From Proteromonas lacertae (taxonomy: Eukaryota), in contig NGBS01001186.1 in assembly GCA_002245135.1 (NCBI GenBank), forward strand, positions 62,001-97,153: a stretch of DNA of 35,153 bases, written 5' to 3'. The number at the start of each line of letters is the position of its first letter. The stretch's first letter is position 1. Positions 6,560 through 34,104 of this stretch are shown one piece after another. A program made the position numbers and the translations under genes. The notes beneath the pieces are model-generated. The model was not told where the DNA came from. It saw only the letters and a program-made list of their open reading frames with translations, and did no database searches.

Positions 6560-8626
6560 ATGCAATCTACGACAGCGCTAACTGTTGGGCAAGATTTAGT
6601 ATTACCTTATATTTTTATGATTTCAATCTAGAGCCAGTTGGCTGTTAATGTGCCATATATTGTAAGTTCGTTGGTTTTATTTTATAGGTTACTTCTATCA
6701 ACACGTCTGAAAGTCATTCATATGTTGTAAGGAATAAAGAAAATAACCAAGAAGGCTATCTTACTGTAATTAATTTAAGAGGGTTGGATCCAAAAGTAAT
6801 CGAGAATTTTGTATATAAATTGGGATATTATTTATCGATAGAATGAAAGCTACAAGAAGTACACTAAAGACAAAGATCATTTTGATGATCAAAACGCCAT
6901 TTATTTGCAAGCATATCAAGCAATGTTTATGATAATTCCTTACCAGTTTCAACCGCTAATATCCAAGAATTTTGATGAGTTTCAAAATAAATATCGAATT
7001 GACATTATGGAAGGAGTTGTAAACTGTTTAATCAATTTAGACGCTCAGAATATGTGTCATGGTTCATTAAACCCAACAAATATTTCAGTTCATGAAGGAA
7101 AAGACCAAAGAACTGTAATTAAGCTGAGAAATTATGGTATTTATCAAATCAGAAATACAGCTGATTTAACCTACGAAGAATGTACATTTTTAGCTCCAGA
7201 AATCATTTTAGGTCAAGAAGTAACCAGTAAAACTGATTTATGGAGTTTAGGCTGCTTAATGTATTATTTGTCCACAGGTAGAAGATTATTCCACGCAGCA
7301 AATATCAGAACCTTAGTGAACAAGATAATTAAAGCAGATTATACAATATCTTGTTATGAATGTAATGAAAAAGAGAAATCGTTAATCAGAAAATTGGTAA
7401 AAAGAGAAAAAGAAATGGATGTACGTGAGGTAAAGAACTTTGTAGAAAAAATGAAAGATGAGAAATTTGAACCAGATAGTGATGATATTACACTTGAATA
7501 CTTACGTCAAATGGCTGCACATAATGTTGTTATACCTGATAAAGAAAGATTAGCTGTAGTTGGTCAAACCCAAGGTTTGTTAGATGCTGTAATAAATGAG
7601 TATAACTCATTACAAAAAGATGATCCTAAAAAGACTTGGTTTTTAGGGTTAATATTGAATTTAGCATTTTTACCTATTTATTATGATGATATTAAAGCAA
7701 AATTAAACACCGAAGATGGAAGTAATCATCAAGCTTTATTCAGAGCATTAACAACTCAAGGAAAACGAGCTGCAGATGATGATACTGATAAAATATGTAT
7801 TGTGTTTAGTAAAATGTGCGTAAATTGTAAAGATAGAAAAGATGGTCAACCTTTGTTAATGGAATTTTGTAGGATATTACCTGCATTAACGAAACTGCAA
7901 GAATTAGAAGTTACTAGTAATAGCATCAAAGATCCATTGATGAAGTACATGGCATCTAATTTTGAGTGGAAGAATATGGAATTCTTGAGAGAAATCAATG
8001 TAAAAGGTGATCAACTTGGTCAAGATTCAATGAAATTGTTTGCTGACACTTTATCCACAGGAATTGGTCCTGAAAACTTGAGAACATTATACTTAGAAAT
8101 GAACAATATTGGAGATAGAGGTATTTCATATTTAGTATCAAGATTGGGAAATATTCCAAAGTTAATGGAATTGTTACTTGGTAATAATGATTTAAGTGAC
8201 GAAAGTGTAAGAATGATAGGTAAAAATTTATGCAGAATGCCACATTTACAGCGATTAACCCTTGGCTCAAATGCAAAGATAACTGATGCAGGTGTAATCT
8301 ATTTATTAGATCATTTGCATTATTGTCCTTATCTTACTACTTTATTCTTAAATGGAATGAAATTAACAGATGCTGTTGTTGATCCAATGTGTAACTACTT
8401 ACAAAGTAAAAAGAATAAATATATTCAGTATTTGATAATGAATAATAACGAATTGAGTGATGATGGAGCACAGAAGTTGGTTAATGCCATTGGAGTAACT
8501 AGAAAAGATAGTTGTTGTTCAAGATTAGCCATATTTGATCTTAATTCTAACAAAAATATTACTAATAAGGATAAGATATTAAGTATCTTTAAAACAGAAA
8601 AACCATGGTATCAATTTACAGTTTAA
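6560..8626 (+). CDS. Pseudokinase fused to RNI-like leucine-rich repeats
   Basis: Three short 5' introns link ATG 6560 to ORF 6905-8626. Kinase-fold motifs FLAPE and DLWSLGC are present but the catalytic motifs are degenerate (HGSLNPTN, RNYG). C-terminal repeats LYLEMNNIGDRG, LLLGNNDLSDES, LIMNNNELSDDG. Confidence 0.85.
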
Positions 8627-11550: not shown

Positions 11551-13018
11551 TTATGCTTTATTAGCATCAGCTTCTGGTGCTGGTGGTATTTTTTTACCTT
11601 CCTTTTTAGCTAAAGCTCTTTGTTGTCTTTCAGCTTGATAATTCACTTTCTTATCTTTCACAAATGGAATAAATGTAGTTCCACCCATATAAGGCACTAA
11701 TTTCTCAGGAACAGTAACACCTTCAGGAGTTTGATAATTCTCCAATACTGCACAAATTGTTCTGGTTAAAGCACATAATGTTGAATTTAGCATATGAACA
11801 TACTTCTTCTCTTTATCATCTACCTTCTTTCTACCTAATCGAATATTAGTAGCACGACTTTGATAATCTAAGCAGTTAGAACAACTGACTAACTCTCTAT
11901 ATTCACCATATCCTGGATACCAACCTTCTAAATCATATTTCTTTGAAGCTGCATTATTCAATGCACCAGATACAATAGCTACAACTCTATAAGGAATACC
12001 TAATGATTCATAAAACTCTTTTGATACTTGAATCATAGCATCATGCATTTCCCATGACTTTTCAGGTGAACAAATAACAAATTGTTCAATTTTATCGAAT
12101 TGATGTACTCTAAATATACCCCATGTATCTTTACCATGAGCACCAGCTTCTTTTCTGAAACATGTACTAAATCCAGCATATTTAATAGGTAATTGATTCT
12201 CTTCTAACCATTCATTCATATGGAAAGCACAAAGTGGTTGTTCACTAGTTGCTATTAAGTATTTTTCATCTCCTTCTTCGCCAGTTACATGGTATAATTC
12301 TTCATCAAATTGTTCTAATTCTGCTACGCCACTCATTACATCTTTATTCATAAAGAATGGTGGGATTACTGGTGAATAACCTCTTTCCATTAAGAAATGC
12401 ATACCATAAGATACTAATGCTTGATTTAATAACACGGCATAATCTCTTAAGAAATAAGCACGATGACCTGCAACATTGACACCTTTTTCTGGTTCATATC
12501 CATTGATCATATGTAATAACTCGTGATGGTGAAGTAATTTACCTTCTGGATTTGGTTTACATTCACCCCAACTAGCTACTGTTACATTGTTTACTTCATC
12601 TTTGAATATTGGTACTGAATCGTGGATTAAATTTCCGATTTTGTTTAATTCTTTATCTCTCTTTTCAGCAAGTTCATCACATTTCTTTTGTTGCTCAATG
12701 ATTTGTTCACTGACTTTGTTGACTTCTTCTCTTTCAGCATCACATGGTTCACCTTTCTTCTTCTTTTCACCAATCTAATTACACAATAAATCTTATATCT
12801 ATACAGCTTTGCTTTTTACACGTTTTTCTGCATTTAATTTATCAAGTTGAAACATTGCTTCTCTCCATTGCTATACATTAATTGATAAAATATACTTTAT
12901 CTAAATCCATTACAACATCAACTTGTTCAACGCTTGCAAATCTTCTTCTTTGAGATTCTCTTACAAGGTCTGGATTTCCACCTTTCTCAGGTCGTAATAA
13001 GTTTATATCGATTGGCAT
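11551..13018 (-). CDS. SARS1: Cytosolic seryl-tRNA synthetase
   Basis: MPIDINLLRPEKGGNPDLVRESQRRRF start; introns 12871-12895 and 12775-12804; class II motifs YLIATSEQPL, CFRKEAGAHGKDTWGIFRVHQF, ELVSCSNCLDYQSR, VHMLNSTLCA. Confidence 0.97.
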
Positions 13019-14702: not shown

Positions 14703-15750
14703 ATGTCTGTACACTCTCTTTTAATTAAAATTACTGATACAATTGAACAAGGAAAGAGAATCATCCCTCTAAATAAAGCTGAAGCAATAAACCTCTTCAA
14801 TATAGCAATAGATTCCTTAAATGACCTTAAAAAACGTAGAATAAATATAAAATAATATTAAATAGGTGAGCAAGATAGTTATGTTAATCAAAGAATAGAA
14901 ATGTTGTTAATAAGCGTAAATGAAGCAAAGTGTTATGCTAATGAATATAGTATAATATTAAGGCATAGTGTTGTATATCATAATAGAACCAATAGCGGTA
15001 CAACAAAGAGTACCAGTTTATTATCCACCAAAACCTATAGAAAACCGACATGTAAATCCTCCTACATATAATATACAATCTAATTCATATCAAAAAGATG
15101 AAAATGATATAATTAAAGACAAATTCAATAAAATACAAAATTATATAAATTTAGCCAATTCCATAATAAAAACAGATTCATTCCAAGCAAAACTATTATT
15201 ATCAAAAGCACAAAAGCTAGTAGATGAAGTATCAATAGAATCATTAAATCCAGTTAGAAATAATGTATTATCTACATATGTTGATTTAATAAAGAAATTA
15301 AATAATCAACTTCCAAAAACTCCTCCATCAAAACATAGCATAAACACTATACATCCATCATTGCAACCTCCACTATCACTACCATTTTCACAACAACAGA
15401 ATATGAATAGTATAAATATAAATGAGTATAATAGAATGTTATATCAACAAGCGAATAATCATATTGAATTAGGAGATAAATATGTAATAAATTTACCTAT
15501 AGAAGCGAAAAGAGAGTATGAAAGTGCATTAGAACTATTGCAGAATATTCAAAATAATAACTTCAATGATATAGAATTAAAATCCCAAGTGAGTATAAGA
15601 ATTACTGTAGTTATGGATAAATTAAATATATTAATAAAGCTGTTAGATGTAGAAAAAGTGAAAAATAATAATAATAATATAAATCCTCTAAAACCAAGTA
15701 ATACAAATGGATTTCAATCTGTGAGTAATAGAGTAATGCAGACTATATAA
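14703..15750 (+). CDS. Multi-MIT-like repeat protein A (about 3 repeats), paralogous to the VPS4 N-terminus
   Basis: ATG 14703 MSVHSLLIKITDTIEQGKR...; intron 14836-14865 at the same position as VPS4 intron 1; repeats such as ANNHIELGDKYV..EAKREYESALELL; Pro/Asn-rich linkers. Confidence 0.7.
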
Positions 15751-15968: not shown

Positions 15969-17708
15969 ATGTCTTACTCCCATTATTTCCATATGATATA
16001 AATGTATTCAAGTTAAAATGTGTGTTATAGATAAAAGATCAAGTAGAAAAGAGTGATAATGAAGTAAATTTAGTGATTGAAGATAAAAATGATATTAAAA
16101 TGTTGAAAATCTTGAATATTAGCGAGATAAAACAAAAGAAAATATTAAAATTACATGAAAATAACTCGTTGTTGTTAGATTGTGGTTTACCCTTCATCCT
16201 CCATTCTAAATTTTTCATATCCACAACTATGGTGAGATTATGATATATGAAAGAGAATATTATCAGAAGGTGGTATTTGTAGTGTAATAAGTTCAGTATG
16301 TTATATATTGATGATATTGAGTGAATATGATGTCGTTGTTAGTAATTTGAAGAGTAGTAACATTGTATATGAAAGAGATGGTAATGTAAAGATATGTGAT
16401 TTAAACCTAAATGCATTAAGAAAAGAAGAAGAAATGAGAATATATGACATATGCTTTAAAAGTCCTGAAGAGTTGAATGGGTTAGAATGTGATGAAAGAA
16501 GTGTGATTTGGTCAATAGGATGTATATTATATGAAATGATAAACAAGAAATTACCATTCAATGAAGATAATGATATGAATAAAACTAAAGAGAATATTAT
16601 GAGCTGTAAATAAAGTTTAGATTAGAATGTGATGATATGATGAAAGAGATGATAGAGAGAATGTTAAAAGTGAAGAGTTTTGATAGAATGAGTTTAAAAG
16701 AGTTGGAAAAAAAATTATAAAAGTGAGTGAAATTAAAAGAGATCTAACGATGTGTAAAGAACGAACAGAAATGTTATTCAATAATTATACACTTCCATCA
16801 TTGTATCCATTTTCTCATTACCTTCAAAGTGATAAATGGGAAGAAATGAGAGATGATTTGATAAAATTCTACAATCAGAAATATAATGAAAGAATACTAT
16901 CACTATTATTGATGATGAAATTATACAAAAGAGATTATGATATGCATAATAGAATCAAATTTCATATTCATCATAAATGTAGATTTAACGGATAAAGTTA
17001 TTTAGATGAGGAGATGTTTAATATTTATTTAGATGGAGAAAGTATCATAATTGATAGAATTAGATGTTGTGTCTATGATATATCTTGTTTCTGTATGTGT
17101 GTAGAAGGTATGAATTATATCTTCAGAATATTGAAAATGATGAATCCAACACAACTGTCATTTAGTATTTTATTAATAGTAACATTTTGAATAGGAGGAA
17201 GCTTTAATCATTTGACTATTCCAAACAGATATCAACCATTATTTGGATCATCATTTGCTCAATTATCCAATCTACAAGAATTATATTTACATTCATGTAA
17301 TCTTACCTGTTATTTTATTGAATCATTTGTTAAATCAATTCCTTTCATGAAATTGAAATAGACAATCCACTTGGTCCAAAAGGCTTCAAATTGTTTCTTC
17401 CTTATTTACATTTGTTAAATAACAAAGACAATGAAATGGATCTTGATAGTATGAATTTAGATGATGAATCGATGATATTATTATCAGAAGAATTATATAA
17501 ATATCTAAATCTAAAGAAGATAAATATAACATTGAATAAAGATATTCATTCAAAAGGATTAACAGCTATTTCATCTAAATTTCCAATTTCCCAAATAGAA
17601 TGTGATATTGAAGGATATAGAAAAATATTTTCCGAAATGTGTTTATTGTATCAGCAAATACGTGTATATATGGTGAAAATCTGGAACAATTTAGATTTAA
17701 TGTTTTAA
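15969..17708 (+). pseudogene. Decayed, truncated paralog of the pseudokinase-LRR gene at 25999-29362
   Basis: Near-identical peptides (LRKEEEMRIYDICFKSPEELNGLE, SVIWSIGCILYEMINKKLPF, NPLGPKGFKLFLPYLHL), but in-frame stops (TAA 16611-16613 where the paralog has Tyr; TAA 16993-16995), deletions and frameshifts near 16240 and 17360, and loss of the 3' half. Confidence 0.85.
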
Positions 17709-17871: not shown

Positions 17872-19056
17872 ATGTCTGTTAATCTCCTTTTTAATCAGAT
17901 GCAAAGTCTTACAGCTAGTGCAGACCATAATTTACAAATCAATAGATCCCAACAAGCCAAACAAGAATATGTAGCAGCTTTAAATATCGTTAATTCTATA
18001 AAATGTATAGTATAGTGTGTCTAATATCATTTATAGCTTCAGGAAATATAACCTATAAAAATCTAATGCCTTCAGTAGAAGATCATATACAAAAACAAAT
18101 TAAGTTGTGTGATTTTACTAATCAGCCTTCTCGCCCATACACACCTCCTTATACCCAAAATAATTCATTTCCTGTACTTCCACCACCACCACCACCGCCA
18201 CATACTCTCCCCTCTCCTCCTCCCCCTACAGGTAAAAATTTAGATGATATTTGGAATAAAGGAATAAAATATATGAATAATGGCACAAAAGACTTAGAAG
18301 ATAATGCAATAGCAGTTGGTATTGAAAGCTTAAAAATTGCAAAAGAATGTTTTGAGCAACTGAAATGCTATTCAGCTTACTCTAAATCATTTGAATATAT
18401 TGCAACTATTGATCGAATATTACAGAAATATGATTTTACAGAGATCACAGATAAAATGAGAACAACATCAGGAAAAGGTGACGAATACTTTAAACTCCAC
18501 GAATATAAATTTGCTAAGATAGAATATGAAAAATGTCTTGATTATTATAGGGAAATTGAGGCTAATTGTATAATGTTATCTATCAGTTGTTTTTTTATAA
18601 TAGCATCAAAAATGCAAAAGTATTTATATGAAGATATGAAGAACATATATAACAAAGTAACAAAAAACTTAAAAATATGTATTTCTAAATGTATATAAAT
18701 TAATGATTATTATTTTTGTTAGATAAACCAGAGAATTCTTGTCTTCCACCACAATCGCCTGTTATTTCTCATTTCCATCATTTTAATGTTGTTTCTGCGC
18801 AAGAATGGAAGAATTTGGATGAATATTTTGCTGAATTAGAGAATTGTTTCTTATATAGGAATAAGAAAAGAGCTTTGGAGTGTTTAGAAATTCTTCAAAC
18901 CAAAATATACAAATTATCTAATAGTATATTACATATGAATTTAGCTATGAATATTTTCTAGAAAAATTAACTGAAGATGAAAGAAAAAGATTAAATGTAT
19001 ATAACGACTGTTTTAAGGCTAAAGAAAACAAATATAATATCGAATATAACTATTAA
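17872..19056 (+). CDS. Multi-MIT-like repeat protein B (about 4 repeats) with polyproline linker
   Basis: Spliced N-terminus MSVNLLFNQMQSLTASADHNLQINRSQQAKQEYVAALNIVNSIKSSGNITYKNLMPSVEDHIQKQIKLCD aligns residue for residue with the VPS4 N-terminus. Introns 18005-18036, 18568-18603, 18691-18722, 18924-18961. Confidence 0.8.
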
Positions 19057-19143: not shown

Positions 19144-20633
19144 ATGGCTTTATCTGGGTTAGTTGATAAAATGGATGGGTACATTAATCGAGGTGATATG
19201 TATATTTGTTATGATAAACCACAAACTGCTAAAGGCTGTTATATAAAAGCATATGAGAAAGCAACAGAATTAGAAAGTAAATTTTAATGATATCTGTTAA
19301 TATTTAGATATGAATGAACCACATTTACATTCATATGTATCAAAATATAAATCAACAATCAAAGAAAGGATAGAACAATGTGATCATGCTCCTCCTACTA
19401 TATCTCGACCACCCAGTACTAATAGTATAATATTATAATGATTATTTTGTTATAGCGTTAAGAAGAAGTCAATCACCAACAAATTATAATAAATCAGAGG
19501 ATCCGTCACCAGATAATTTATTAAAAAATATATCAAGTATAATATATGAAGGAGATAAACTATTTAAAAAACAAAAATACAAGAAAGCTCAAGTGAAATA
19601 TAAAGAAGCAAGAACTGAGTGTTTAAAACTCTTATTAATAATAATTCCTGATGCAAAATACAAATATCAGCTTGATGATTATATAAACCAAATGAATAAC
19701 AAAATAGAAGAATGCTTAGCTCCTCATATGAAATATACTGTAAAATCATCATCATCATCAAAATTACCATTATTAAGAGGATCTACTGCCAATTCAAAAT
19801 CATCTAACGGTTCATTATTATTAGAAGATTGTAAACCAATACAAAATGAAGAAGGAAGTGATAATATTGATGAATTGAATCTGTCAAATAACAGCGATAA
19901 TAGTGATACATATTTATTACCATCTTTAACAACTGTTGCTGGTGTGTTTTACAATGGTAAAAAGTTAATTAGAAAAGCAAATTATTTTGAATCAAAATTT
20001 AGATTTCATGATGCTGCTGTTTGTTTAAAAGAAAGTGTAAAAGTGATGCGACCATTGATAATAAGAGAGTTAAAAAATCATGAAAAAGAACCACTATGTG
20101 ATTATATTAGTCAAAGTGAATTAAAACTATCAATGTTATCTTATTATCCACCTGTAGAATCACAAAAAGATATGTTAAGTAAAATAGAATTATATATTAG
20201 CCATGGTGATTTACTATTATCATTAATTGATCCAATAAAATCATATTTAAATTATAAAATAGCTTTAAATATAGTAGATGGATTAACAAATTATGTAGCT
20301 GAAAATGAAGAGAAATCTTTAGAATGTGTGTTAAAAGATGATATAGATTTGAAAAGAAAAGATGTTCATTCTAAATTAGATGAAATAGATATAATAAATC
20401 AGTTGATAAATCATGAAACAAATGCAAATAATAACAGAATCTGTGATAGAGATGAAGCAATTAGAGAATATATGAAAGCTAGAGAGCTATGTATTAAATT
20501 GGAAGAATATCGTATATTGTTATATGTATTATTATTTGTTTAAATAGATCAAGTTCAGTTAGATGATCCATTTCTGGTAGAAATATTGAATAAAATAGAA
20601 TATTTTGATAATATACTACTCACTATAAATTAA
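19144..20633 (+). CDS. Multi-MIT-like repeat protein C (about 5 repeats)
   Basis: MALSGLVDKMDGYINRGDMY..AKGCYIKAYEKATELE..IEQCD; first intron 19277-19307; further repeats (IYEGDKLFKKQKYKKAQVKYKEA; YISHGDLLL..YKIALNIV); last intron 20512-20547. Confidence 0.75.
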
Positions 20634-20751
20634 ATAATCTAATTTATTTTTGACAATTTTTGTTTAAGATAAAGAAAGTGTAAAATTTTCTCAAGCCAAA
20701 CTTGATCTTATTTTTTTTATTTTTGTTATTTTTACTATACAGTAGTGGAAT

Positions 20752-22190
20752 ATGTCAGTTAATACTCTTTTTGATAAATTACAAAGCTTAAAGGCTAGTG
20801 GCGATCATTATTTTCAAGCAAATAATTTTAATGAAGCCAAATCGGAATATAAAAAAGCATTGAATATAGTTCAGATAATAAAAGGTATATTTAATTATAT
20901 TGACAGTAAAATAGATACAAAAAATCAAATATATTCACAACATATGCCAAGTTATGAACAACAGCTAATTGCTCAAATAGAAGCATGTGATAAAGGTAGG
21001 ATTCCAGTTGCAGCTCCAGCAGGTGGGTGTGGTGATGCATATGGAAGAGCACAAGGAGGAGGTGGAGGAGGTACAAATTCTCAAACCGATGAACTTGAAG
21101 GAATGGAAAAGCAACTAGAAAGTCAAATGACAAAAGTAGAAGGTTTGAAATGGTCTAGTATTGCTGGATTGAAAGAAGCTATAAATTCCTTACAAGAAGC
21201 TATTGAATTACCACGAAAATACCCACACTTGTTTACAGGTGATAGAAAGCCATGGAGTGGTATATTACTATATGGTCCACCTGGTACTGGTAAGTCATAT
21301 TTAGCCAAAGTAGTAGCAAGTGAAATACAAGGTTCATTCTTCTCAATTAGTTCATCAGATTTAGTATCAAAATGGCAAGGTGAATCTGAGAAGTTAATTA
21401 GGTCATTGTTCTCATTAGCAAGGAAGAAAGCACCTTCTGTTATATTTATTGATGAAATTGATTCAATAGCAACAGCAAGAACTGAAGTATAGAAAAAAAT
21501 ATATATATATATAATAAATAGGGTGAAAATGAAGCTTCTAGACGTATTAAAACTCAATTATTAGTGCAAATGCAAGGTGTAACAACAGATTCAGATATTA
21601 ACCACAGAGTTCTAGTACTAGGAGCAACCAATGTTGTATATTTATTAATATTATTATTATAGCCTTGGGAAATTGATAGTGCTGCAAGACGTAGATTTGA
21701 AAAGAGAATATATATTCCATTACCTGATGCACCAGCTAGAACTGAATTATTTAGAATTCAATTGGAGAAAATGTGGCATAATTTATCACCAGAACAAATT
21801 AACGAATTAGTTCTAAACACTGAAGGATTTTCTGGTTCTGATATTGCTACAATGTGTAAAGAAGCTGCTATGCAACCAGTAAAGAGAGTTTCTGTATTTA
21901 TTTCTTATTAATTATATAGACAACTACATATTATAGATATTGTAATATTGAGAATCAAGTCATATATTTACCTTGTGGTCAACAAGGAGGAAATGGAACT
22001 AAGACATATGATAGTATGACACAGGAGGAAAGAAAGAGAATATATGATTTCGTTTCTTTTGTATATTTATGTGTATTATGTCAATTAGGGTGATTTTACT
22101 AATGCTTTGAACAGAGCTAGAAGAACAGTTAGTCAAGATGATCTTAAACGTTTTGAAGAATGGACAGCTGAGTTTGGTATTCAAGGATAA
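20752..22190 (+). CDS. VPS4: VPS4 AAA+ ATPase (ESCRT-III disassembly)
   Basis: N-terminal MIT-like domain; [95 protein letters not shown]-terminal [12 protein letters not shown]. Introns include 20885-20914 and 21487-21521. Confidence 0.93.
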
Positions 22191-25998: not shown

Positions 25999-28900
25999 AT
26001 GTTACCATCAGATTCAGAAGTATTTCGATTGACTTATTTTATATAGATAAAAGAAAGAATAGAGAAGAGTAATTATGAAGAAAACTTGGTCATTCTACAT
26101 GAAAATGATACCAAAATGGTTAAAATATTTAATTTGGATGGAATAAAAGAAAAGAAGATTTTAATATTCTATGAAAATCACTCCTTGCTGTTAAATTGTT
26201 GTAATTCCTTTATTTTTCCTTATGACGTTGTTCAGATGAATGTTGAAAGTGAATATATGATAATTTCTCGAAGATATTATTCAGGAGATTTAGAGGAGAT
26301 AATCCAGAGTAAATCCTTATCAGAAGGCGATATATATAGTGTGATATGTTCTTTGTGTAATAATCTATTGATTTTGAGTGGTTATGATTTAGTAGTAGGT
26401 AATATGAAGAGTTCTAATGTGGTATATGATGTAAATGGTGATATAAAGTTATGTGATTTATTCTTGAATGAGTTGAGAAAAGAAGAAGATATGAGATTGT
26501 ATGATATATGCTTCACAAGTCCTGAAGAGTTGAATGGATTAGAAATGAATGAAAAAAGTGTGATTTGGTCAATTGGTTGTATATTATATAAAATGATAAA
26601 CAAGAAATTACCTTTTAAAGAAGATGATAATATGATGAAAACAAAAGAGAATATTATGAGATGTAAATACTCAGCTGAAGAAAAGAAAGATAACAGAATA
26701 ACAGAATTGTTGAAAAATATATTTATGATAGATAATAATAAAAGACTTAATATTGAAGAGTTGAATAAATGTTTAATGAAAGAAAATTCAATAAAAGAAA
26801 ATTCAAATCGATTGTTATTAATAGAGAATGAAAGAAAAAATATGTTATATAATAACGATAAAGAATTGTTATACTATCCAACCTTATTCCAATCTGAATA
26901 TTATATTAAAAACTGGGAATATGGAAGTATATAACACATACATATATTGTAATATAGATAAATTTCTGTTTATATTATTGTCATACAATTACAATAAAGA
27001 TGATGAGATTCTTTCAATACTGTTGAGATTAAAATCCTATTCAAAAGATGTTAAAATCAAAAATCTAATAAATTATAAATATTATCACAAATGTAAAAAC
27101 AATTCAGGATGTTATTTAGATGAAATGATATTTAACATTAAAATTAATCAAATTAATGAAATATTTATAGAAATCAATTCAGACTGCATTTGTTTATGTG
27201 AAGAAGGAATTGCTTATTTCCTCAAAATAATGAAATTAGTCAATCCTACAAAAATTGAATTTGGTATATTTCTAATCATTATTATTTATTTAGATAAGAT
27301 GAAAATTCCAATCCATCATCAGTCATTATTTGAATCATATTTTTCTCAAATAACAAATCTAGAAGAATTGGATTTATCAGGATGTAATCTTTCTTCTAAT
27401 TTCATTGAATTATTTGTTAAATCACTTCCATTAATGAGATTAAAACATGTTGATCTTTATGGTATTTATAATATTGTTTTTATTGTTTTGAAATAGATAA
27501 TCCAATTGGCCCAAAAGGATTCAAATTGTTACTTCCATATTTACATCTAATAATTAACGAGAGTAATGAATTGAATCTCCAAAAGATGAGATTGAATGAT
27601 GAATCAATTGAGTTATTATCAGAAGAATTATCCAAATATCCAAATATTACAAAAATAGATGTTAGAAATAACAAAAACATTCATTCCAAAAGATTAAAAG
27701 TTTTATTTTCCATATTCCCTGATATATACTGTGATCCATACAAAGAACTGCTAATTGATCAGACAATAGGAAATTTAAATAATTTTATAGAATTATACAA
27801 TGAAAGTATAATTAATAAACATGCTCAATATCCAACGAAGTGTAGAACTTTAAATTTGAGTAATCTGTGTATCGATGATGTTTTTTTCAAATCATTTTTT
27901 TCATTAAGATCAAATGAATTTAGGGATATTTATTGTTTATATTTGAATAGTATATTTTGATATTTTTAAATTATATAGATAATCAATTAACATATGAAGG
28001 TATAAAAATACTGATTAACAATTTATCTTTATTTTCAGATTTTATGGAGATTAAAATATATGGAAATAATATAGGAGATGAAGGAATGAGATTATTATCT
28101 CCACATTTAAAGTTTTTAGAAGATTATTATGAAATAATTAATTTTTCGAGTATAACATTAATTATTGTAATTAATTTTGAATAGAAATGGGATTATCTTC
28201 AACTGGATTGAAATACTTATTAGATGATTTAAAAACAGTTTTTAGAGAAGGATATCAAAGAATCACACTTGATATAAGTGATAATAATATTGATTCAGAT
28301 GGAATAGAATATTTAATGAAGTATGTTAAAGAAGAAGATAATATAAAAAAGTTCTACATTCATAGTATATTATTATATTAAGTCTGTTTTATTCAACAGA
28401 TAATCCAATTGGTAATTTAGGATTTAAATTATTATTATGCAATTTATGGAAATTACCTAACAATCTAAGTAATATCTCAATAGATGATGATGGTGTGGAA
28501 CTATTAGTGAATGTATTTGATAAACTTATAGAATGCAAAACAATAATTTTATATGGAAATAATATTAGAATGAAAGGGTTGAAATCTATATGTTCAAAAT
28601 CCATTTCAAATTGGGTATATCCTTTTATTGCAATGAAAAGTCAATCTTGGACAAATCAAGAATTGGAATATTATTTGAATTATTGTATTGAAAAGGAAAG
28701 AAGAGAATGTTATGATGAGGATAATTATGGTTGGTGTGATAATTGTAACAAAAAGAAAGGGAAATATTACATAAAATTTGATTTTTCAAGTATATAGTTT
28801 ATATTAAATTGAAATAGATATGAATATTAATGATTTTCATATATCACTAATTAAACAGATAGATTATGATATACTTGATTTATCAAATAATAGAATAAGT

Positions 28901-29362
28901 TACAAAGGATTAGAAGAATTGGTGGATTCTTTACTAGGATATCATTATGTATACATATCAATATTCAGTAATGAAATTGGAGATGAAGGAATAAAGATAA
29001 TATGTGATTGTTTAGAACAATTTGTTGAAAGAGATGGAAAAAGAAATCCAGTATCATTAAATGTATCAAATGGAATGACTGAAAATGGATTGATATTGTT
29101 AATAGAAAGATTAAATGATTATCAATCATTACAAAAGATAAATCTATCAGGAAATGAATTAAATGAAAGAGAATTGAGATTAATTATAGAAAACAAAGAT
29201 ATATTTGAATGTTTAGATGAATTTTTAATTACTGTAAAAGATGATGTATCAGAATTAGAATTATTTTTAGAAACATTCTCAACAATTGCAACAATCAAAA
29301 TAAATGGAATATCAGATGAAGAAAAGAAAGAATTATCAAAAGAATTCTTCAACATAGAATAA
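25999..29362 (+). CDS. Pseudokinase fused to a long RNI-like LRR array (multi-exon)
   Basis: Kinase fold with degenerate catalytic loop (VVGNMKSSN) and DLF in place of DFG, plus SPEE and IWSIGC. Many LRRs (NPIGPKG, NNIGDEG, NNIDSDG, NEIGDEG), separated by introns that often fall just before the repeat Asn. Confidence 0.8.
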
Positions 29363-29411: not shown

Positions 29412-30200
29412 TTATTTTGTTTCATACAAATTGAACAAACCTAATAATTGAGTTAAACCATATGATGTACTTTCATCAACACATCCTTCTCCATTTCTTG
29501 CATAAAAGAAATCAATTAACTTCAAATTAACTGGCGGATCTTTTACTAAAGGATCTCCTTCATATATGATAAATACCGAAGATGCTGTGAAATGATATTC
29601 TGTTTGAACTTTGAAGTATGCTACTAATGCTGCTAATTGTGTAAGTATCTTCTGATGGATCAATGGTAAGGTATCTAAACCACATGAATAATAATTATCT
29701 ATTAAAGATTTCAGATTGTCTATTTTTATATCTCTTCCAAAGTGTTTATCTAATATCATGTATTTGTCACTTTTATATTGGTAAACTCTCATTCCTGTCA
29801 ATCTAAATCCTACTTTTTCTTGTTCTGCATACTTCGATAATTCATAATCAACTTTCTCTTTTGCTGCTTCTGGTGGATATGTATATTTTCCAATCTTAAA
29901 ATCCACTATACAAGGAAATTTGAATGTTGACAACAAATTCTCAAGCTTTATGTAATCTTTGCCATTATACTCTTCCTTACCAAGAAAATGGGGTATAAAT
30001 GCTAATAATGGAGATTTTTTCTTGTTTACTTCTTCATACCACTTCAATTCTGCATCTCTATATAAAAATATCATAAAAACAACAAAATACCCTCCATCTT
30101 TCTTTTTGATGGGTTTTAAAACAGTTGAGCCAGATACTAAAAATACGTTGTTTTCACTGACAACATGATGACCTCCTAACTGCTCTTCAAAAGCCTTCAT
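29412..30200 (-). CDS. Inositol polyphosphate kinase (IPK/IPMK family)
   Basis: QLGGH start motif, LENL, PCIVDFKIG (PxxxDxKxG), GFRLTGM, ASSVFIIY, LIDF; in-frame 33-nt intron 30058-30090. Confidence 0.9.
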   Translation of the reverse strand: MKAFEEQLGGHHVVSENNVFLVSGSTVLKPIKKKDGGYFVVFMIFLYRDAELKWYEEVNKKKSPLLAFIPHFLGKEEYNGKDYIKLENLLSTFKFPCIVDFKIGKYTYPPEAAKEKVDYELSKYAEQEKVGFRLTGMRVYQYKSDKYMILDKHFGRDIKIDNLKSLIDNYYSCGLDTLPLIHQKILTQLAALVAYFKVQTEYHFTASSVFIIYEGDPLVKDPPVNLKLIDFFYARNGEGCVDESTSYGLTQLLGLFNLYETK

Positions 30201-30264
30201 TTCAACTTCAAAAAATATAGTCAGTTAATAGAACAAAACGAATATATTTCCTGTTTCTATTGGA

Positions 30265-30583
30265 ATGGTCTGATTTATTTGTATTTTAATTCCTCTCTGG
30301 ACTCCATTTGTGGTATAATTATAGTATGATATTTTTATAGAGCCTTTTATCTTACGTCTACTACAATAACTATGGTCCTTATGCTGCAATAGTCGTTGCT
30401 TTGTTAGGTTTCATACTGTACAAAGTGTATGTTCGGTATAAATTCGGTAGTGCAGAAAAATCGAATGTTGAAGAAGAATCCTCTCTAGTTGGTGAGAATA
30501 AAGATAATGAGAGTAGTAGTTGTGGACCAGGTGGATGATCTACAGGGGGACTTAGGTTCCGTGTAAAACTTGACGAAAATTAA
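30265..30583 (+). CDS. Putative small membrane selenoprotein (96 aa, Sec at codons 3 and 82)
   Basis: Exons 30265-30312 and 30341-30583 (28-nt GTAT..TAG intron) give MVUFICILIPLWTPFVSLLSYVYYNNYGPYAAIVVALLGFILYKVYVRYKFGSAEKSNVEEESSLVGENKDNESSSCGPGGUSTGGLRFRVKLDEN*. TGA at 30271-30273 and 30536-30538, TAA stop, SECIS immediately downstream. Confidence 0.8.
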
Positions 30584-30594
30584 TTTTAATAGTT

Positions 30595-30662
30595 TTAAGA
30601 TTAAAATGATGATTTTTCTCTCATAAAGTGGAAACTGGAGGGAAAATGATGTTAATTCTTAA
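30595..30662 (+). promoter_or_regulatory. Eukaryotic SECIS element (form 2) in the 3' UTR
   Basis: Helix I TTAAGA-TTAA / TTAA-TCTTAA; core ATGAT (30609) / TGAT (30647); helix II TTTTCTCTC / GAGGGAAAA; unpaired AAA (30625-30627) 12 nt after ATGA; apical mini-hairpin GT-GGAA-AC. Confidence 0.85.
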
Positions 30663-31154
30663 AATTATTATATATTTATATATATTGTTTTTATGTTTAT
30701 GTAAAATTCTCTTAAAAGTACTTAAATATGTTGATGAATTGCATTGTTATCTCGATGTGTTTTTTTCTCTCTCGATAGTATAGTAAATATGAAGAAAAAT
30801 AAAATATATGAATTCTTCTGATAATAACTCAATTCATAACCTATTTTAATAAAAGATCAACATATTCCACTTTCATTGAATTTTAAAATCTTCTTTTCTT
30901 TTATTCCGTCTAAATTAAATATTTTAACCATTTAGGTATCGCTTTTATGTAGAATAATCAAATATTCTTCATAATTACTCCTCTCCATCCTTTCTTCTAT
31001 TAAATAAGTCAATCCAAATACTTCTGAATGTGATTGTAACATTGTAGATAATATATTATCAACAACGAAATTCATCATTAAATAATTATATTTATGATTT
31101 AATAAACAAACTAAACAAAAAACATATTAAAAAATATATATATAACATATAAAT

Positions 31155-34104
31155 TTATTTTTTAGATTTATCAAAACAACGATGTTCCAATATCTGTTTA
31201 GCAGATGGTCTTTTATTAGCTTCCTTCGTTAACATCCAATCAATCAACTGTTGTAAATCAGAAGAGTAGTATTTAGGAATTCTTGTAGTTTTACTACTTC
31301 TAATAGCAGTAACTAAAGTAATCATATTGTTCCCAGTAAAAGCAGATTCTAAACAACACAATTCATGTGAAATACAACCTAATCCCCAAATATCTACCTT
31401 ATTATCATATGGTAAGTTTAAAAACATCTCTGGAGCCATATATAATGGAGATCCAATAACTGTTTTAGCCTTTTGATCAGGTCTAACCGCAGTAGATACA
31501 CCAAAATCACCTATTAAACAAGCATCATTATCATTTAAAAAGATATTAGCTGGCTTCATATCACGATGTATAATATTCTGTGAATGGAATATAGTATAAA
31601 CCTAATGCTACACATTGTATATAATATAATATCAACTGTTCTTTAAAGTAAGATCTGAACTTATCTCTTTGAATATTGATCTTCTGTTCTAAGTCTCCCT
31701 TTGAGCAATATTGCATTACTAAATATATATTCTTTTCTTTAGAAAATCCATCAATATAATGAACTACATAGGGTGAGTTTAATCTCTTTAATATTGATAT
31801 TTCTGATTCCATCATATCTTTAGATTTCTTATCAATTCCTTTGGTTGACATTTCCTTCATTACATAATATTGTTCTTTAGATGAGACTAAATATACTTTA
31901 CCCCATGATCCACTACCTATTTCTTTTAATATATGATACTTTTCTGGTTCAGTAAACATACTAGACATTGCATCATTACCTATCTTTATTAACTCACTAG
32001 CATTTGGTCGATTCTTATAATTCTTTGTTAAACTTAAATCTATTAATTTCAATATACCAGGATTAACATCTCTACTTAATTTAGGATAAGATTTAGTAGG
32101 AATAACAGATTGTAATTGTAACAATGTACCAGTAAATGGTGGTTTAAATTCGCATAGTTCATACAGTATACAACCTGCAGCCCATATATCAACACGTTGA
32201 TCATAACTATTTCCTTCATACATCTCAGGTGACATATAACTTGGTGAACCTATGGTTGTATGAGTTAAATTACCTTCATCGAGGGTTTTAGCAACACCAA
32301 AGTCACCTATTATACAGTCATTAACATGGTTTAAGAATATATTTTCAGGTTTTAAATTACGATGGATTATTCCTAATGAATGGATATATTCGATTCCTTT
32401 TAAGAGTGATAAGAACAGTCTCAATATTTCTTTATCATCTAAATCATCTTGTTTTGATCTAGCAGTTTGAATTAGGTGTAATAAATCACCATTAGCACAG
32501 TAGGATGTTACTAGACATATATATCCTGGTATTGCAAATACATCAGTATATTCAATCACATTTCTATGATGTAATTTTCTTAATATTTCTAACTCCTGGA
32601 ATATCATCTTTTTAGCATCTTTTGATAGATTTGTATACATTATTTTCTTTAATACTTTAATGCCTTCACCTCTATCTACTGTATAAAGTGTTGATGTACG
32701 CTTATCTGCAATACAGGCTTGTATTTTATATCCTTTTGATTCAATACTATTACATTCTTCAATACCTCTTCTTTGGATTGAATTTCTATTGTTATATTGA
32801 CTGGAATTATTATTATTATTATTTGAATAATTATTATTTGAATTATTGGAGGTTTGTATTAATACAGGTTTAACGTTTGGTGTATTATTATTAGAATTAT
32901 TGTTATAAACAGTTTCTGGGGATTTTTGAGGTGAAAAATCTCTACTAATTGTTGATTGACCAAATTGAACCCATTCATTTAAATAGTGTTTAATATAAAC
33001 CAAATATCGATTATCACTATCTTTTACAAATAATTGATATAAAGAAGATGAATAAAACTGATAACCTACAGCTACTAATGAATAAAATAATAAAGTCAAA
33101 GTGTCATATTCACACTGTTCTTTACCCCATATTTTATATCGATCACTGTAGTTATTACTATGTTGAAATAATATATTCGCATTAGCTACTTTAGGTTCTG
33201 TACCGTAATATAAAAATATTATTCTAAGTACTTTTCTGTAAGTATTCATATACTTTTCATTCTGTTTGAACTTGTCAATATCTTCCGGTTTAGTTTTGTT
33301 ATAAACTGATGGTAGTAATGCTTTAAACATAGATCTATGAGATCTTAACCAGTTGATATTATGATATTGTCTTAGAAATACATTGATAGTAACCAATGGT
33401 TCGTTTTTATATTGCATTCCTTCTTTACCTTCATAGAGATTAAATATATTCATTTTTTGTACGATATCATCACATACTTCATTGAGATTATCTTCTTCTT
33501 GGTTATTGTGTAGTACCATTGTATTTTTCTTACTATCTGTTGGTTCTACATCGTAAGATTCACATCTCGATTTTGGAATTGGTGGTAATATTGGTGTAGA
33601 TTCTATATTAGCTGTTGCTGGAGATGATATGATGTTCGATGCTTCTTCTAATAAGATCGGATTCTCTGTTTCTTGACCTTTCACTGCCATTGCACTTTCA
33701 CGATGTTTTTTAACAATTTCTGGACCTTTTACTGTATAAGGCTCACTTTCACTCTTAGCATAGTTTGATGCCTTAAGCGGAACAGATGAATTATTGTTAC
33801 TTTTCTTCAAATCGCTATTTTGAGATTTTTTGAGTGGTGGTTTATCTGGTGGCACTTCTGAATTTTGTCTACTATGCAATGTGACATAATTTTGGTTGTT
33901 TATATTGGATTTTTTTATTTCTTCCAGAGAACCTTTTGTTACACGGTTATTATTATCTAAATTCCCTTGATTATAATCCAGATAATGTAAACTATTCTAT
34001 GAAACAGTAATTACACAAAAATACATGTGGGCTTCGTGTCAAAGGTGCTGAAGGTATTGTACTTTTCTATGACATAATAACATAATTTATTATACAGAAC
34101 TCAT
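31155..34104 (-). CDS. Tandem NEK-like kinase (pseudokinase plus kinase), interrupted by a 1-nt frameshift
   Basis: ATG 34104 with introns 34067-34095 and 33997-34024 leads into ORF 31561-33879. Two NEK-type domains (GDFGVA/S, IGSPxYMxPE, VDIW); the second domain continues in ORF 31155-31559 after one extra base at about 31586-31589. Confidence 0.85.

What the first reader, a model, noticed from the sequence alone, without database searches (positions are those of the whole stretch)
30265..30662. Hidden two-Sec membrane selenoprotein with N-terminal UxxC, C-terminal CGPGGU and a canonical SECIS
Seen: a 2-exon ORF missed by the ORF track. It has in-frame TGA at codon 3 (MV-U-FI-C, a UxxC redox-type motif) and at codon 82 (C-GPGG-U), a hydrophobic N-terminal half, a TAA stop, and a full SECIS fold (both helices, GA/GA core, AAA, mini-stem) starting 12 nt after the stop. 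Established: eukaryotic Sec insertion needs such a SECIS, and SelK/SelS are small ER membrane proteins with Gly-rich C-terminal Sec. Inference: the N-terminus MVUFICILIPLW resembles the MVCxxC start of the UPF0729/C18orf32 (DUF4512) small membrane proteins, which I do not know as selenoproteins. This may be an undescribed selenoprotein family, with Sec unusually close to the start codon. The second TGA lies about 70 nt before the SECIS core and could act as Sec, stop or both.
Basis: partly seen in the sequence, partly recalled or inferred. Interest (0 to 1): 0.92.

Follow-up and report, generated by a model that had tools for sequence, protein, structure and literature searches.

The report
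Two-selenocysteine membrane protein, new family
A protist likely related to Blastocystis has an overlooked gene for a small, predicted membrane protein with two in-frame UGA codons and a selenium-insertion-type hairpin behind it, and a distant, probably ciliate relative has the same layout with UGA and cysteine swapped in one motif, so this is very likely an uncatalogued selenoprotein family, probably related to the poorly understood human protein C18orf32.

Summary
Observation confirmed. The gene has two predicted exons (30265-30312, 30341-30583), TGA at codons 3 and 82, and the only canonical SECIS-pattern hit in the 35-kb window (0.125 expected by chance), 26 nt after the stop. The host's seryl-tRNA synthetase is sister to named Blastocystis (support 89/81).

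Three close relatives keep the second TGA and the 14 residues behind it. A probable ciliate homolog (L003) starts MV-U-VPCII and has its own SECIS-like hairpin. Its tail reads U-GPKG-C where the window has C-GPGG-U, so each tail TGA faces a Cys in the other gene. Human C18orf32 starts M-V-C-I-P-C-I-V (published primer), putting Cys opposite codon 3. The Pfam DUF4512 hit is far below threshold, so C18orf32 is a probable distant relative, not a shown family. It is not MSP, SelK or SelS.

Best reading: an uncatalogued two-Sec ER-membrane selenoprotein, likely a redox relay between a mobile tail motif and a membrane-edge UxxC. Splicing, Sec machinery, selenium incorporation and function are untested. 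This scan noted a similar codon-3 UGA gene before in another protist (e1-7377966, unchecked here).

The parts
30265..30312 (+). Exon 1 (predicted): start codon, UxxC motif (TGA 30271-30273, Cys codon 30280-30282) and first hydrophobic segment
   Evidence: Sequence. Only + strand ATG between the neighbour's start (30200) and the donor. First 10 residues match L003 at 7 of 10 and human C18orf32 start with P = 1.5e-5 for an anchored random match.
30313..30340 (+). 28-nt GT..AG intron, phase 0 (predicted)
   Evidence: Begins GTAT and ends ATAG like 8 of 9 and 8 of 9 candidate introns (28-56 nt) found elsewhere in the window. Relative P0006 reads MIFIQ before SLL, consistent with a CAG acceptor at the same place. 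Not confirmed by RNA.
30341..30583 (+). Exon 2: second hydrophobic helix with aromatic/basic end, acidic disordered linker, C-GPGG-U motif (Cys 30521-30523, TGA 30536-30538), 14-residue conserved tail, TAA 30581-30583
   Evidence: Three Logan clusters at 69-77% identity; tail 12-13 of 14 identical against 9-10 of 22 in the linker.
30592..30665 (+). Type II SECIS-pattern hairpin: helix I, UGAU/UGAU core (30610-30613, 30647-30650), 9-bp helix II, AAA (30625-30627), 3-bp mini-stem
   Evidence: fits the UGAN/KGAW core described in PMC3753652 section 4. No Rfam SECIS_1 hit.
30201..30264 (.). 64-nt gap between the head-to-head start codons of this gene and an inositol polyphosphate kinase gene (29412-30200, - strand); presumed shared promoter region
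   Evidence: promoter role inferred.

Best explanation
This is very likely a real spliced gene for a 96-residue membrane selenoprotein with selenocysteine at residues 3 and 82, belonging to an uncatalogued family shared with a probable ciliate and probably related to human C18orf32, and it most likely works as a two-site redox relay at the ER membrane. Steps and my odds: (1) the 3' hairpin is a working SECIS and the gene is a selenoprotein, about 0.93 (sequence, chance test, homologs; no selenium measured). (2) TGA82 is read as Sec, about 0.88; TGA3 is read as Sec, about 0.85 (Cys opposite each in a homolog). (3) The N-terminal hydrophobic helix or helical hairpin anchors the protein in the ER or lipid-droplet membrane, leaving the N-terminal UxxC at the membrane edge and the acidic, disordered tail on the cytosolic side, about 0.7 (hydropathy, AlphaFold2, analogy with C18orf32). 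(4) Inferred only: the tail motif C-GPGG-U (U-GPKG-C in the ciliate type) forms a selenenylsulfide that a thioredoxin system would reduce, and the flexible tail would pass electrons to the membrane-edge UxxC, which would reduce or isomerise a membrane substrate such as a disulfide in an ER membrane protein or a lipid peroxide, about 0.5.
For: Gene and SECIS. Close relatives: within one 90% cluster the same protein is called once ending at CGPGG and once reading W there (P0006 vs P0003/P0007; P0005 vs P0008), which points to a TGA at that codon, and the following 14 residues are better kept than the linker. Distant homolog L003 (1 of 28 pattern hits): its part downstream of the search pattern matches the exon-2 profile at E 5e-5, the only one of 84 frames below E 1.5; 0 of 1963 reported full shuffles and 1 of 2000 block shuffles scored as high; hhalign P 5e-7. 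It has a full-length, sub-threshold Rfam SECIS_1 match (16.6 bits, cut-off 35) in its 3' region. The swap U-GPKG-C / C-GPGG-U keeps one Se and one S four residues apart, as expected of a redox pair. Human C18orf32 starts M-V-C-I-P-C-I-V (primer in PMC5800811 Table S2); L003 matches it at the two positions my pattern left free (P = 0.006). AlphaFold2 gives helix 4-31 plus a disordered tail for L003; PMC12797721 describes helix 4-35 plus disordered 39-76 for C18ORF32 (passages). Blastocystis ST7 is reported to have Sec-type thioredoxin reductases (PMC3129679 passage).
Against: No Rfam SECIS hit for the window element; the L003 hairpin folds no better than shuffles (z -0.44). The 71-nt TGA82-to-core distance is inside the 51-111 nt zone reported as the minimum for deiodinase 1. 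Pfam DUF4512 is far below cut-off and seen only for L003 (E 7.4-9.5); neither exon peptide of the window hit it. The pattern that found L003 required the codon-3 TGA and was shaped by my recall of the C18orf32 start, so codon-3 TGA conservation is not an independent test. Only one distant homolog was found: phmmer over 1.84 billion representatives returned 1 protein, a close relative, and the L003 protein found no candidate. The window's SerRS placement has moderate support (89/81) and lies outside the named Blastocystis clade, so Sec machinery is borrowed from relatives. The relay itself has no direct evidence; both AlphaFold2 models are low-confidence (pTM 0.29-0.31).
Confidence: 0.6

Rival explanations
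1. Same two-Sec membrane protein, but the Sec/Cys residues bind a metal or Fe-S cluster (UxxC plus CxxxxU as four ligands) for sensing or transport support rather than relaying electrons.
For: Four S/Se atoms in two motifs are kept in both the window and L003 proteins. The weak Pfam rows include a FeoB-associated Cys-rich membrane protein (E 1.7-5.1, 5 of 7 members).
Against: That Pfam match covers only the hydrophobic helix and is far below cut-off. Sec is, from established knowledge, nearly always used for redox catalysis. A Sec/Cys position swap is easy to explain for a redox pair.
Confidence: 0.13
2. It works like SelK/SelS or as a lipidation cofactor: the N-terminal U/C residues are acylated or hold an acyl intermediate, and the protein is an adaptor in ER quality control or lipid-droplet handling, without an internal relay.
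For: Small size, N-terminal membrane segment and disordered tail. C18orf32 is reported in the ER and on lipid droplets and is needed for efficient GPI-inositol deacylation (passages). SelK's role in palmitoyl transfer is recalled, not read.
Against: No SelK or SelS Pfam hit; tail acidic, not basic; Sec 14-23 residues from the end. It does not explain the conserved C/U-GPxG-U/C pair.
Confidence: 0.13
3. It is a selenoprotein, but only one TGA is recoded: either a 73-nt intron from 30268 removes codon 3 (81-residue product), or TGA82 mostly terminates (81-residue product ending in CGPGG).
For: The 73-nt splice keeps the frame. TGA82 is only 71 nt from the core. Partial termination at Sec codons is common (established knowledge).
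Against: The 30268 donor reads GTCTGA, unlike any of the 9 candidate introns. Exon 1 matches the intronless L003 start. The tail after TGA82 is conserved, and L003 has Cys at that position followed by 18 more residues.
Confidence: 0.11
4. Not a selenoprotein: a pseudogene, a chance hairpin, or TGA read as Trp.
For: AT-rich DNA folds easily; no Rfam hit in the window; no expression data.
Against: Chance rate 0.125 per window against a hit right behind this stop. Four long frames of the window use TGG for Trp 15 times with no TGA. Relatives keep the frame and the TGA; the distant homolog has its own SECIS-like hairpin and Cys opposite TGA82.
Confidence: 0.03

Closest known systems
C18orf32 / UPF0729 (Pfam PF14975 DUF4512)
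   Same: Start M-V-[C/U]-x-x-C-I (human start from a primer in PMC5800811 Table S2). Small size (76 vs 85 and 96 residues). N-terminal helix then disordered tail (PMC12797721 passages; AlphaFold2). Collinear weak Pfam hit, residues 2-30 to model 1-28, for L003.
   Different: TGA/Sec instead of Cys3, plus a SECIS. A second C/U-GPxG-U/C motif in the tail, which I recall the human protein lacks (full human sequence not retrieved). About 20 extra residues and a second hydrophobic segment in the window protein. Pfam score 7.7 against cut-off 27.
SELENOK / SELENOS (SelK, SelS/VIMP)
   Same: Small membrane selenoproteins with a disordered tail and Gly-Gly before Sec (family features recalled; the defining paper was not held).
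   Different: No Pfam hit. Sec is 14 (window) or 23 (L003) residues before the end, not at the last few positions. Tail is acidic (D+E 9-11 vs K+R 5). An extra N-terminal UxxC.
MSP, membrane selenoprotein of Ostreococcus, Chlamydomonas, Dictyostelium (PMC2375036)
   Same: Protist membrane selenoprotein; the Dictyostelium form has two Sec.
   Different: About 177-233 residues with a G-[SA]-U-C-W-P motif and several hydrophobic segments (alignment read); neither motif nor size fits.
Thioredoxin reductase C-terminal GCUG arm / two-centre disulfide relays such as DsbB (recalled)
   Same: What it may work like: a mobile Sec-Cys arm shuttling electrons to a second redox centre.
   Different: No sequence or fold relation; no flavin or quinone site; analogy only.

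Membership tests
Eukaryotic selenoprotein | In-frame TGA aligned to Cys in a homolog | tested here: met
   TGA82 faces Cys67 of L003 and C77 faces TGA62 of L003; TGA3 faces Cys3 of human C18orf32, if that homology holds.
Eukaryotic selenoprotein | SECIS anatomy in the 3' region (UGAN/KGAW core, helix II, apical AA, helix I) | tested here: met
   1 pass in the window, 0.125 expected.
Eukaryotic selenoprotein | Match to a SECIS covariance model | tested here: inconclusive
   Rfam: no hit for the window; L003 16.6 bits against 35. SECISearch3 was not available.
Eukaryotic selenoprotein | TGA far enough from the SECIS (minimum 51-111 nt for DIO1) | tested here: inconclusive
   Codon 3: 308 nt after splicing; codon 82: 71 nt; literature range.
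Eukaryotic selenoprotein | Sec machinery in the same genome | not testable with these tools
   No genome held; no tRNA in the window.
Eukaryotic selenoprotein | Transcript that is spliced and includes the SECIS; selenium incorporated | not testable with these tools
   No run listed.
UPF0729 / C18orf32 (DUF4512) | N-terminal M-V-C-x-x-C-I motif | tested here: met
   With U for C3: anchored BLOSUM62 score 24 (P 1.5e-5) for the window, 39 for L003, which was selected on most of these positions.
UPF0729 / C18orf32 (DUF4512) | Pfam PF14975 gathering score (27 bits) | tested here: not met
   L003: 7.7 and 7.4 bits. Window exon peptides separately: no hit. The spliced window protein was not scanned.
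UPF0729 / C18orf32 (DUF4512) | N-terminal helix (about 4-35) followed by a disordered tail | tested here: met
   Predicted only: helix 4-31, tail pLDDT mostly below 50 for L003; helix then coil for exon 2; human layout.
UPF0729 / C18orf32 (DUF4512) | ER / lipid-droplet location | not testable with these tools
   Human data.
SelK / SelS | Sec within the last few residues of a basic, Gly/Pro-rich tail (recalled) | tested here: not met
   14 and 23 residues follow the tail Sec; tails acidic.
SelK / SelS | Pfam match to the SelK or SelS model | tested here: not met
   No such row at E<=10.
MSP | G-[SA]-U-C-W-P motif, about 180-230 residues | tested here: not met
   Compared by eye with the alignment in PMC2375036 supplementary file 2.
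Ostreococcus hypothetical selenoproteins 1-3 | Their Sec motifs (GCUG end, PCUGR end, GLUNI) and sizes | tested here: not met
   Sequences read; none resembles this protein.

The most novel reading that the evidence does not exclude
An ancient, widespread eukaryotic selenoprotein family that gene finders cannot see because Sec is the third residue. It is the selenium form of UPF0729/C18orf32, which makes the human protein a Cys-converted redox enzyme whose N-terminal CxxC is its active site. The protist members carry a second, position-swappable Sec/Cys arm, forming a roughly 90-residue two-centre selenium relay in the ER membrane.
Probability: 0.45. Interest if true: 0.9.

Novelty: new variant of a known kind. 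Interest (0 to 1): 0.8.

Why it matters
New eukaryotic selenoprotein families turn up rarely, and this one is built to be missed: TGA at codon 3 removes the start, and the second TGA cuts the tail. Sec almost always marks a catalytic redox residue (established knowledge). A Sec opposite Cys3 of C18orf32 therefore gives a direct test for a human ER/lipid-droplet protein whose molecular function was unreported in 2018 (PMC5800811) and whose 2025 study contains the word cysteine 0 times in its main text (PMC12797721): mutate Cys3 and Cys6 and score GPI deacylation and lipid droplets. The gene is also a natural test of two points of UGA recoding: Sec insertion two codons after initiation, and Sec insertion only 71 nt from the SECIS core. 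The C/U swap within one motif is a clean natural experiment on which position needs selenium.

Tried and rejected
No whole genome is held. No sequencing run was listed, which is no evidence on expression.

Protein searches: Pfam on the window peptides and on the 7 members of alignment A1 gave no family above cut-off. PDB sequence searches gave 0 hits. Foldseek of the L003 model against PDB gave 0 matches, uninformative for one helix. phmmer over 1.84 billion representatives found only the close relative P0004. The L003 protein had no candidate sharing three 5-residue words. The language-model atlas was not run, so look-alikes there remain unexamined.

DNA searches: the search for related loci with exon 2 in JGI metagenomes had 592 pattern matches and none confirmed. 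27 of the 28 N-terminal pattern hits were rejected as chance: best downstream E 1.5, most inside longer frames. Viral and prokaryote pattern hits L001, L030, L031 and L032 lie in unrelated phage or bacterial DNA and were rejected; two viral scans found nothing. Plain MAFFT of the two SECIS elements did not align their cores, so no covariation test was made.

Gene-model alternatives: donors at 30268 (GTC), 30281 and 30310 (GTG) were considered and judged less likely. TGA=Trp in the window was rejected. MSP, SelK/SelS and Ostreococcus hypotheticals 1-3 were rejected as families.

Literature: searches for C18orf32 + selenoprotein (5 papers), Blastocystis + selenoprotein (15), Blastocystis + selenocysteine + SECIS (1), MVCIPC/DUF4512/PF14975 (0) and protist selenoproteomes listed no title describing this family. 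The 186 Seblastian candidates hold no GPGGU, UGP, UPF0729 or C18orf32 string, and all 3 MVU strings are unrelated.

Full report
1. Observation. The window is AT-rich eukaryotic DNA (22-33% GC per kb). The sequence shows ATG at 30265, TGA at codon 3, a 28-nt GT..AG interval at 30313-30340, a second in-frame TGA at 30536 (codon 82) and TAA at 30581-30583, giving 96 residues if both TGAs are read. Behind the stop lies a hairpin with an A-UGAU / UGAU core, nine consecutive helix II pairs, AAA twelve bases after the UGA, a 3-bp mini-stem and a long helix I. It fits the type II SECIS description in PMC3753652 (section 4 read). It folds better than 196 of 200 shuffles (z -2.28). In my pattern scan of both strands, 7 sites matched the core pattern and only this one passed the helix I and energy filter; 40 shuffled windows gave 5 passes in all. 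I chose those filters after seeing the element. Rfam's SECIS model did not report it in either of two searches.

2. Gene model. Exon 2 has no in-frame ATG. The nearby intronic ATG (30326) runs into TAG at the acceptor, and 30265 is the only other + strand ATG after the divergent neighbour's start. Of nine candidate introns found elsewhere in the window by joining long frames, 8 begin GTAT and 8 end ATAG, with lengths 28-56 nt; the proposed intron has both ends. A 73-nt intron from 30268 would skip codon 3 and keep the frame, but its donor GTCTGA resembles none of the nine. The splice is not confirmed by RNA (no run listed).

3. Host. The window's seryl-tRNA synthetase has named Blastocystis proteins as its best named hits (62-66%) and is sister to them in a 30-row tree with moderate support (89/81). 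Low-GC Blastocystis lineages exist (21-23% in tortoise isolates; PMC12129017 passages), and ST7 is reported to have Sec-type thioredoxin reductases (PMC3129679 passage). The host's own Sec machinery could not be searched. TGA is not a general Trp codon here: four long frames hold 15 TGG and no TGA.

4. Close relatives. Exon 2 found 3 proteins among 5 candidates, all from Logan assemblies, 69-77% identical, with three more cluster members. In two clusters one member ends at CGPGG and another reads W there and goes on, which indicates a TGA called under two codes. The 14 residues behind it are 12-13 of 14 identical to the window, against 9-10 of 22 in the linker before it. That suggests the tail is translated, though I had no DNA to exclude an RNA-level constraint. 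These gene calls lack exon 1.

5. Distant relative. A scan of JGI metagenome contigs for ATG-GTN-TGA-N6-Cys-Ile-x-Ile-Pro gave 28 loci. 27 look like chance. L003 (20% GC) has an intronless frame 672-926 that is open if TAA is Gln, as in ciliates; the ciliate label is my inference from code and composition. It starts MV-U-VPCII, has one hydrophobic helix, an acidic linker and the motif U-GPKG-C. Homology was tested on the part not used in the pattern: against the exon-2 profile it scored E 5e-5, the only one of 84 frames below E 1.5; 0 of 1963 reported full shuffles (2000 made) and 1 of 2000 block shuffles scored as high; hhalign gave P 5e-7; a pairwise test without the N-termini beat 2000 of 2000 shuffles. 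Its 3' region has a full-length but sub-threshold Rfam SECIS_1 match (976-1039, 16.6 bits, E 1.1) with a UGAU/UGAA core, similar by eye to Tetrahymena SECIS elements printed in PMC2612030 (passages), although it folds no better than shuffles. The key result is the swap: window C77-GPGG-U82 against L003 U62-GPKG-C67. Each tail TGA faces a Cys codon in the other gene, which is the standard comparative sign of Sec.

6. Link to C18orf32. A cloning primer in PMC5800811 Table S2 gives the human start as M-V-C-I-P-C-I-V. The window's first eight residues match with an anchored chance of 1.5e-5. L003 matches at the two positions my pattern left free (P 0.006). Pfam DUF4512 was one of only two families listed for the L003 protein, collinear from the N-terminus, but at 7.7 bits against a cut-off of 27, and the window's exon peptides did not hit it. 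AlphaFold2 predicts helix 4-31 and a disordered tail for L003; C18ORF32 is described with helix 4-35 and a disordered 39-76 (PMC12797721 passages). I put common ancestry at about 0.7 and do not file the gene as a member, since the family threshold was tested and not met.

7. Mechanism. Shown by sequence or calls: two S/Se pairs, an N-terminal hydrophobic region (19-residue hydropathy peaks 2.3 at residue 1 and 1.9 at residue 29 in the window; one peak of 2.3 in L003), and conservation as above. Predicted: helix plus disordered tail (low confidence). Inferred: ER or lipid-droplet anchoring with both ends cytosolic, by analogy with C18orf32 and from the basic residues after the helix. Inferred and untested: the tail pair, held by a Gly-Pro turn, cycles as a selenenylsulfide, is reduced by the thioredoxin system and hands electrons to the membrane-edge UxxC, which acts on a membrane substrate. 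Rivals are metal binding (0.13), a SelK-like acylation or adaptor role (0.13), only one TGA recoded (0.11) and not a selenoprotein (0.03).

8. Comparison with known families. MSP is larger with a different motif, and Ostreococcus hypotheticals 1-3 differ (PMC2375036: passages, supplementary file 1 and parts 7-8 of 8 of file 2). SelK/SelS criteria are recalled (paper not held) and not met. The part of the family table seen in PMC7435645 (passages) names nothing like it. The Seblastian candidate file, which covers B. hominis, holds none of the motif strings (PMC3753652: passages, sections 4 and 13, term searches of supplementary file 2; file 1 not searched). Other papers gave nothing on this family: PMC7539508 (passages and section 5), PMC3316567 (passages), PMC6627142, PMC5330540 and PMC4561486 (passages), bioRxiv 10.64898/2025.12.23.696201 (two passages). 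Limits on the novelty claim: the supplement of PMC7539508, with its 42 algal families including 'Hypo', could not be read; the supplement of PMC12797721 had no text; the Aureococcus and Euplotes selenoproteome papers were not read; subscription journals are not searched. The claim rests on searches.

9. Earlier scan notes. After my own tests I found note e1-7377966: a Telonema-like protist gene with UGA at codon 3, a SECIS and likeness to C18orf32. It agrees with this reading and would widen the family, but I could not check it and do not count it as evidence.

10. Verdict. The feature is real and very likely a two-Sec membrane selenoprotein of a family not found in the lists I could read, present in at least a stramenopile and a probable ciliate. 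Novelty: new variant of a known kind (a new selenoprotein family, probably the Sec form of UPF0729 with an added redox arm). Interest 0.8.

Noticed in passing
P0003, P0007, P0008 (Logan proteins); window 30581-30583; L003:927-929: These relatives read W right after the last conserved residue, where the window has TAA and P0004 ends, so their stop is probably TGA. One mRNA would then use TGA as Sec far from the SECIS and as stop close to it. L003 has a third TGA 54 nt before its SECIS core, which could be the stop or a third Sec.
   Followed up: partly
window 30298-30385 (about residues 12-31): The window protein has about 20 more residues than L003 in the membrane region. They look like a weak internal repeat of the hydrophobic helix (35 of 2000 shuffles scored as high), which would turn one helix into a hairpin.
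   Followed up: partly
window 29412-30200 (-): Inositol polyphosphate kinase gene (Pfam IPK, E 1e-35) head-to-head with the selenoprotein gene, start codons only 64 nt apart.
   Followed up: no
window 11551-12774 (-): Seryl-tRNA synthetase only 62-66% identical to named Blastocystis and sister to all of them in a 30-row tree (89/81): the host seems to be a deep, AT-rich (about 26% GC) Blastocystis-related lineage with one 95%-identical Logan relative.
   Followed up: partly
window 6923-8626, 16251-17708, 26047-29362: Several kinase-like and leucine-rich-repeat frames, apparently an expanded kinase-LRR family (Pfam checked for 6923-8623 and 28820-29359 only).
   Followed up: no
window 14962-15750, 17994-18698, 19431-21492: A run of helical-repeat, Pro-rich frames ending in an AAA ATPase with a TPR-like N-terminus (Vps4/katanin-like by eye; Pfam AAA).
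   Followed up: no
window 31564-33996 (-): Kinase frame with two kinase stretches and a weak OGFr_N match (E 3e-4, below cut-off).
   Followed up: no
earlier scan notes e1-7093438 and e1-9710633: These describe bacterial one-helix microproteins with a U-x4-C motif, the same spacing as the L003 tail motif. No homology was tested; a lead only.
   Followed up: no
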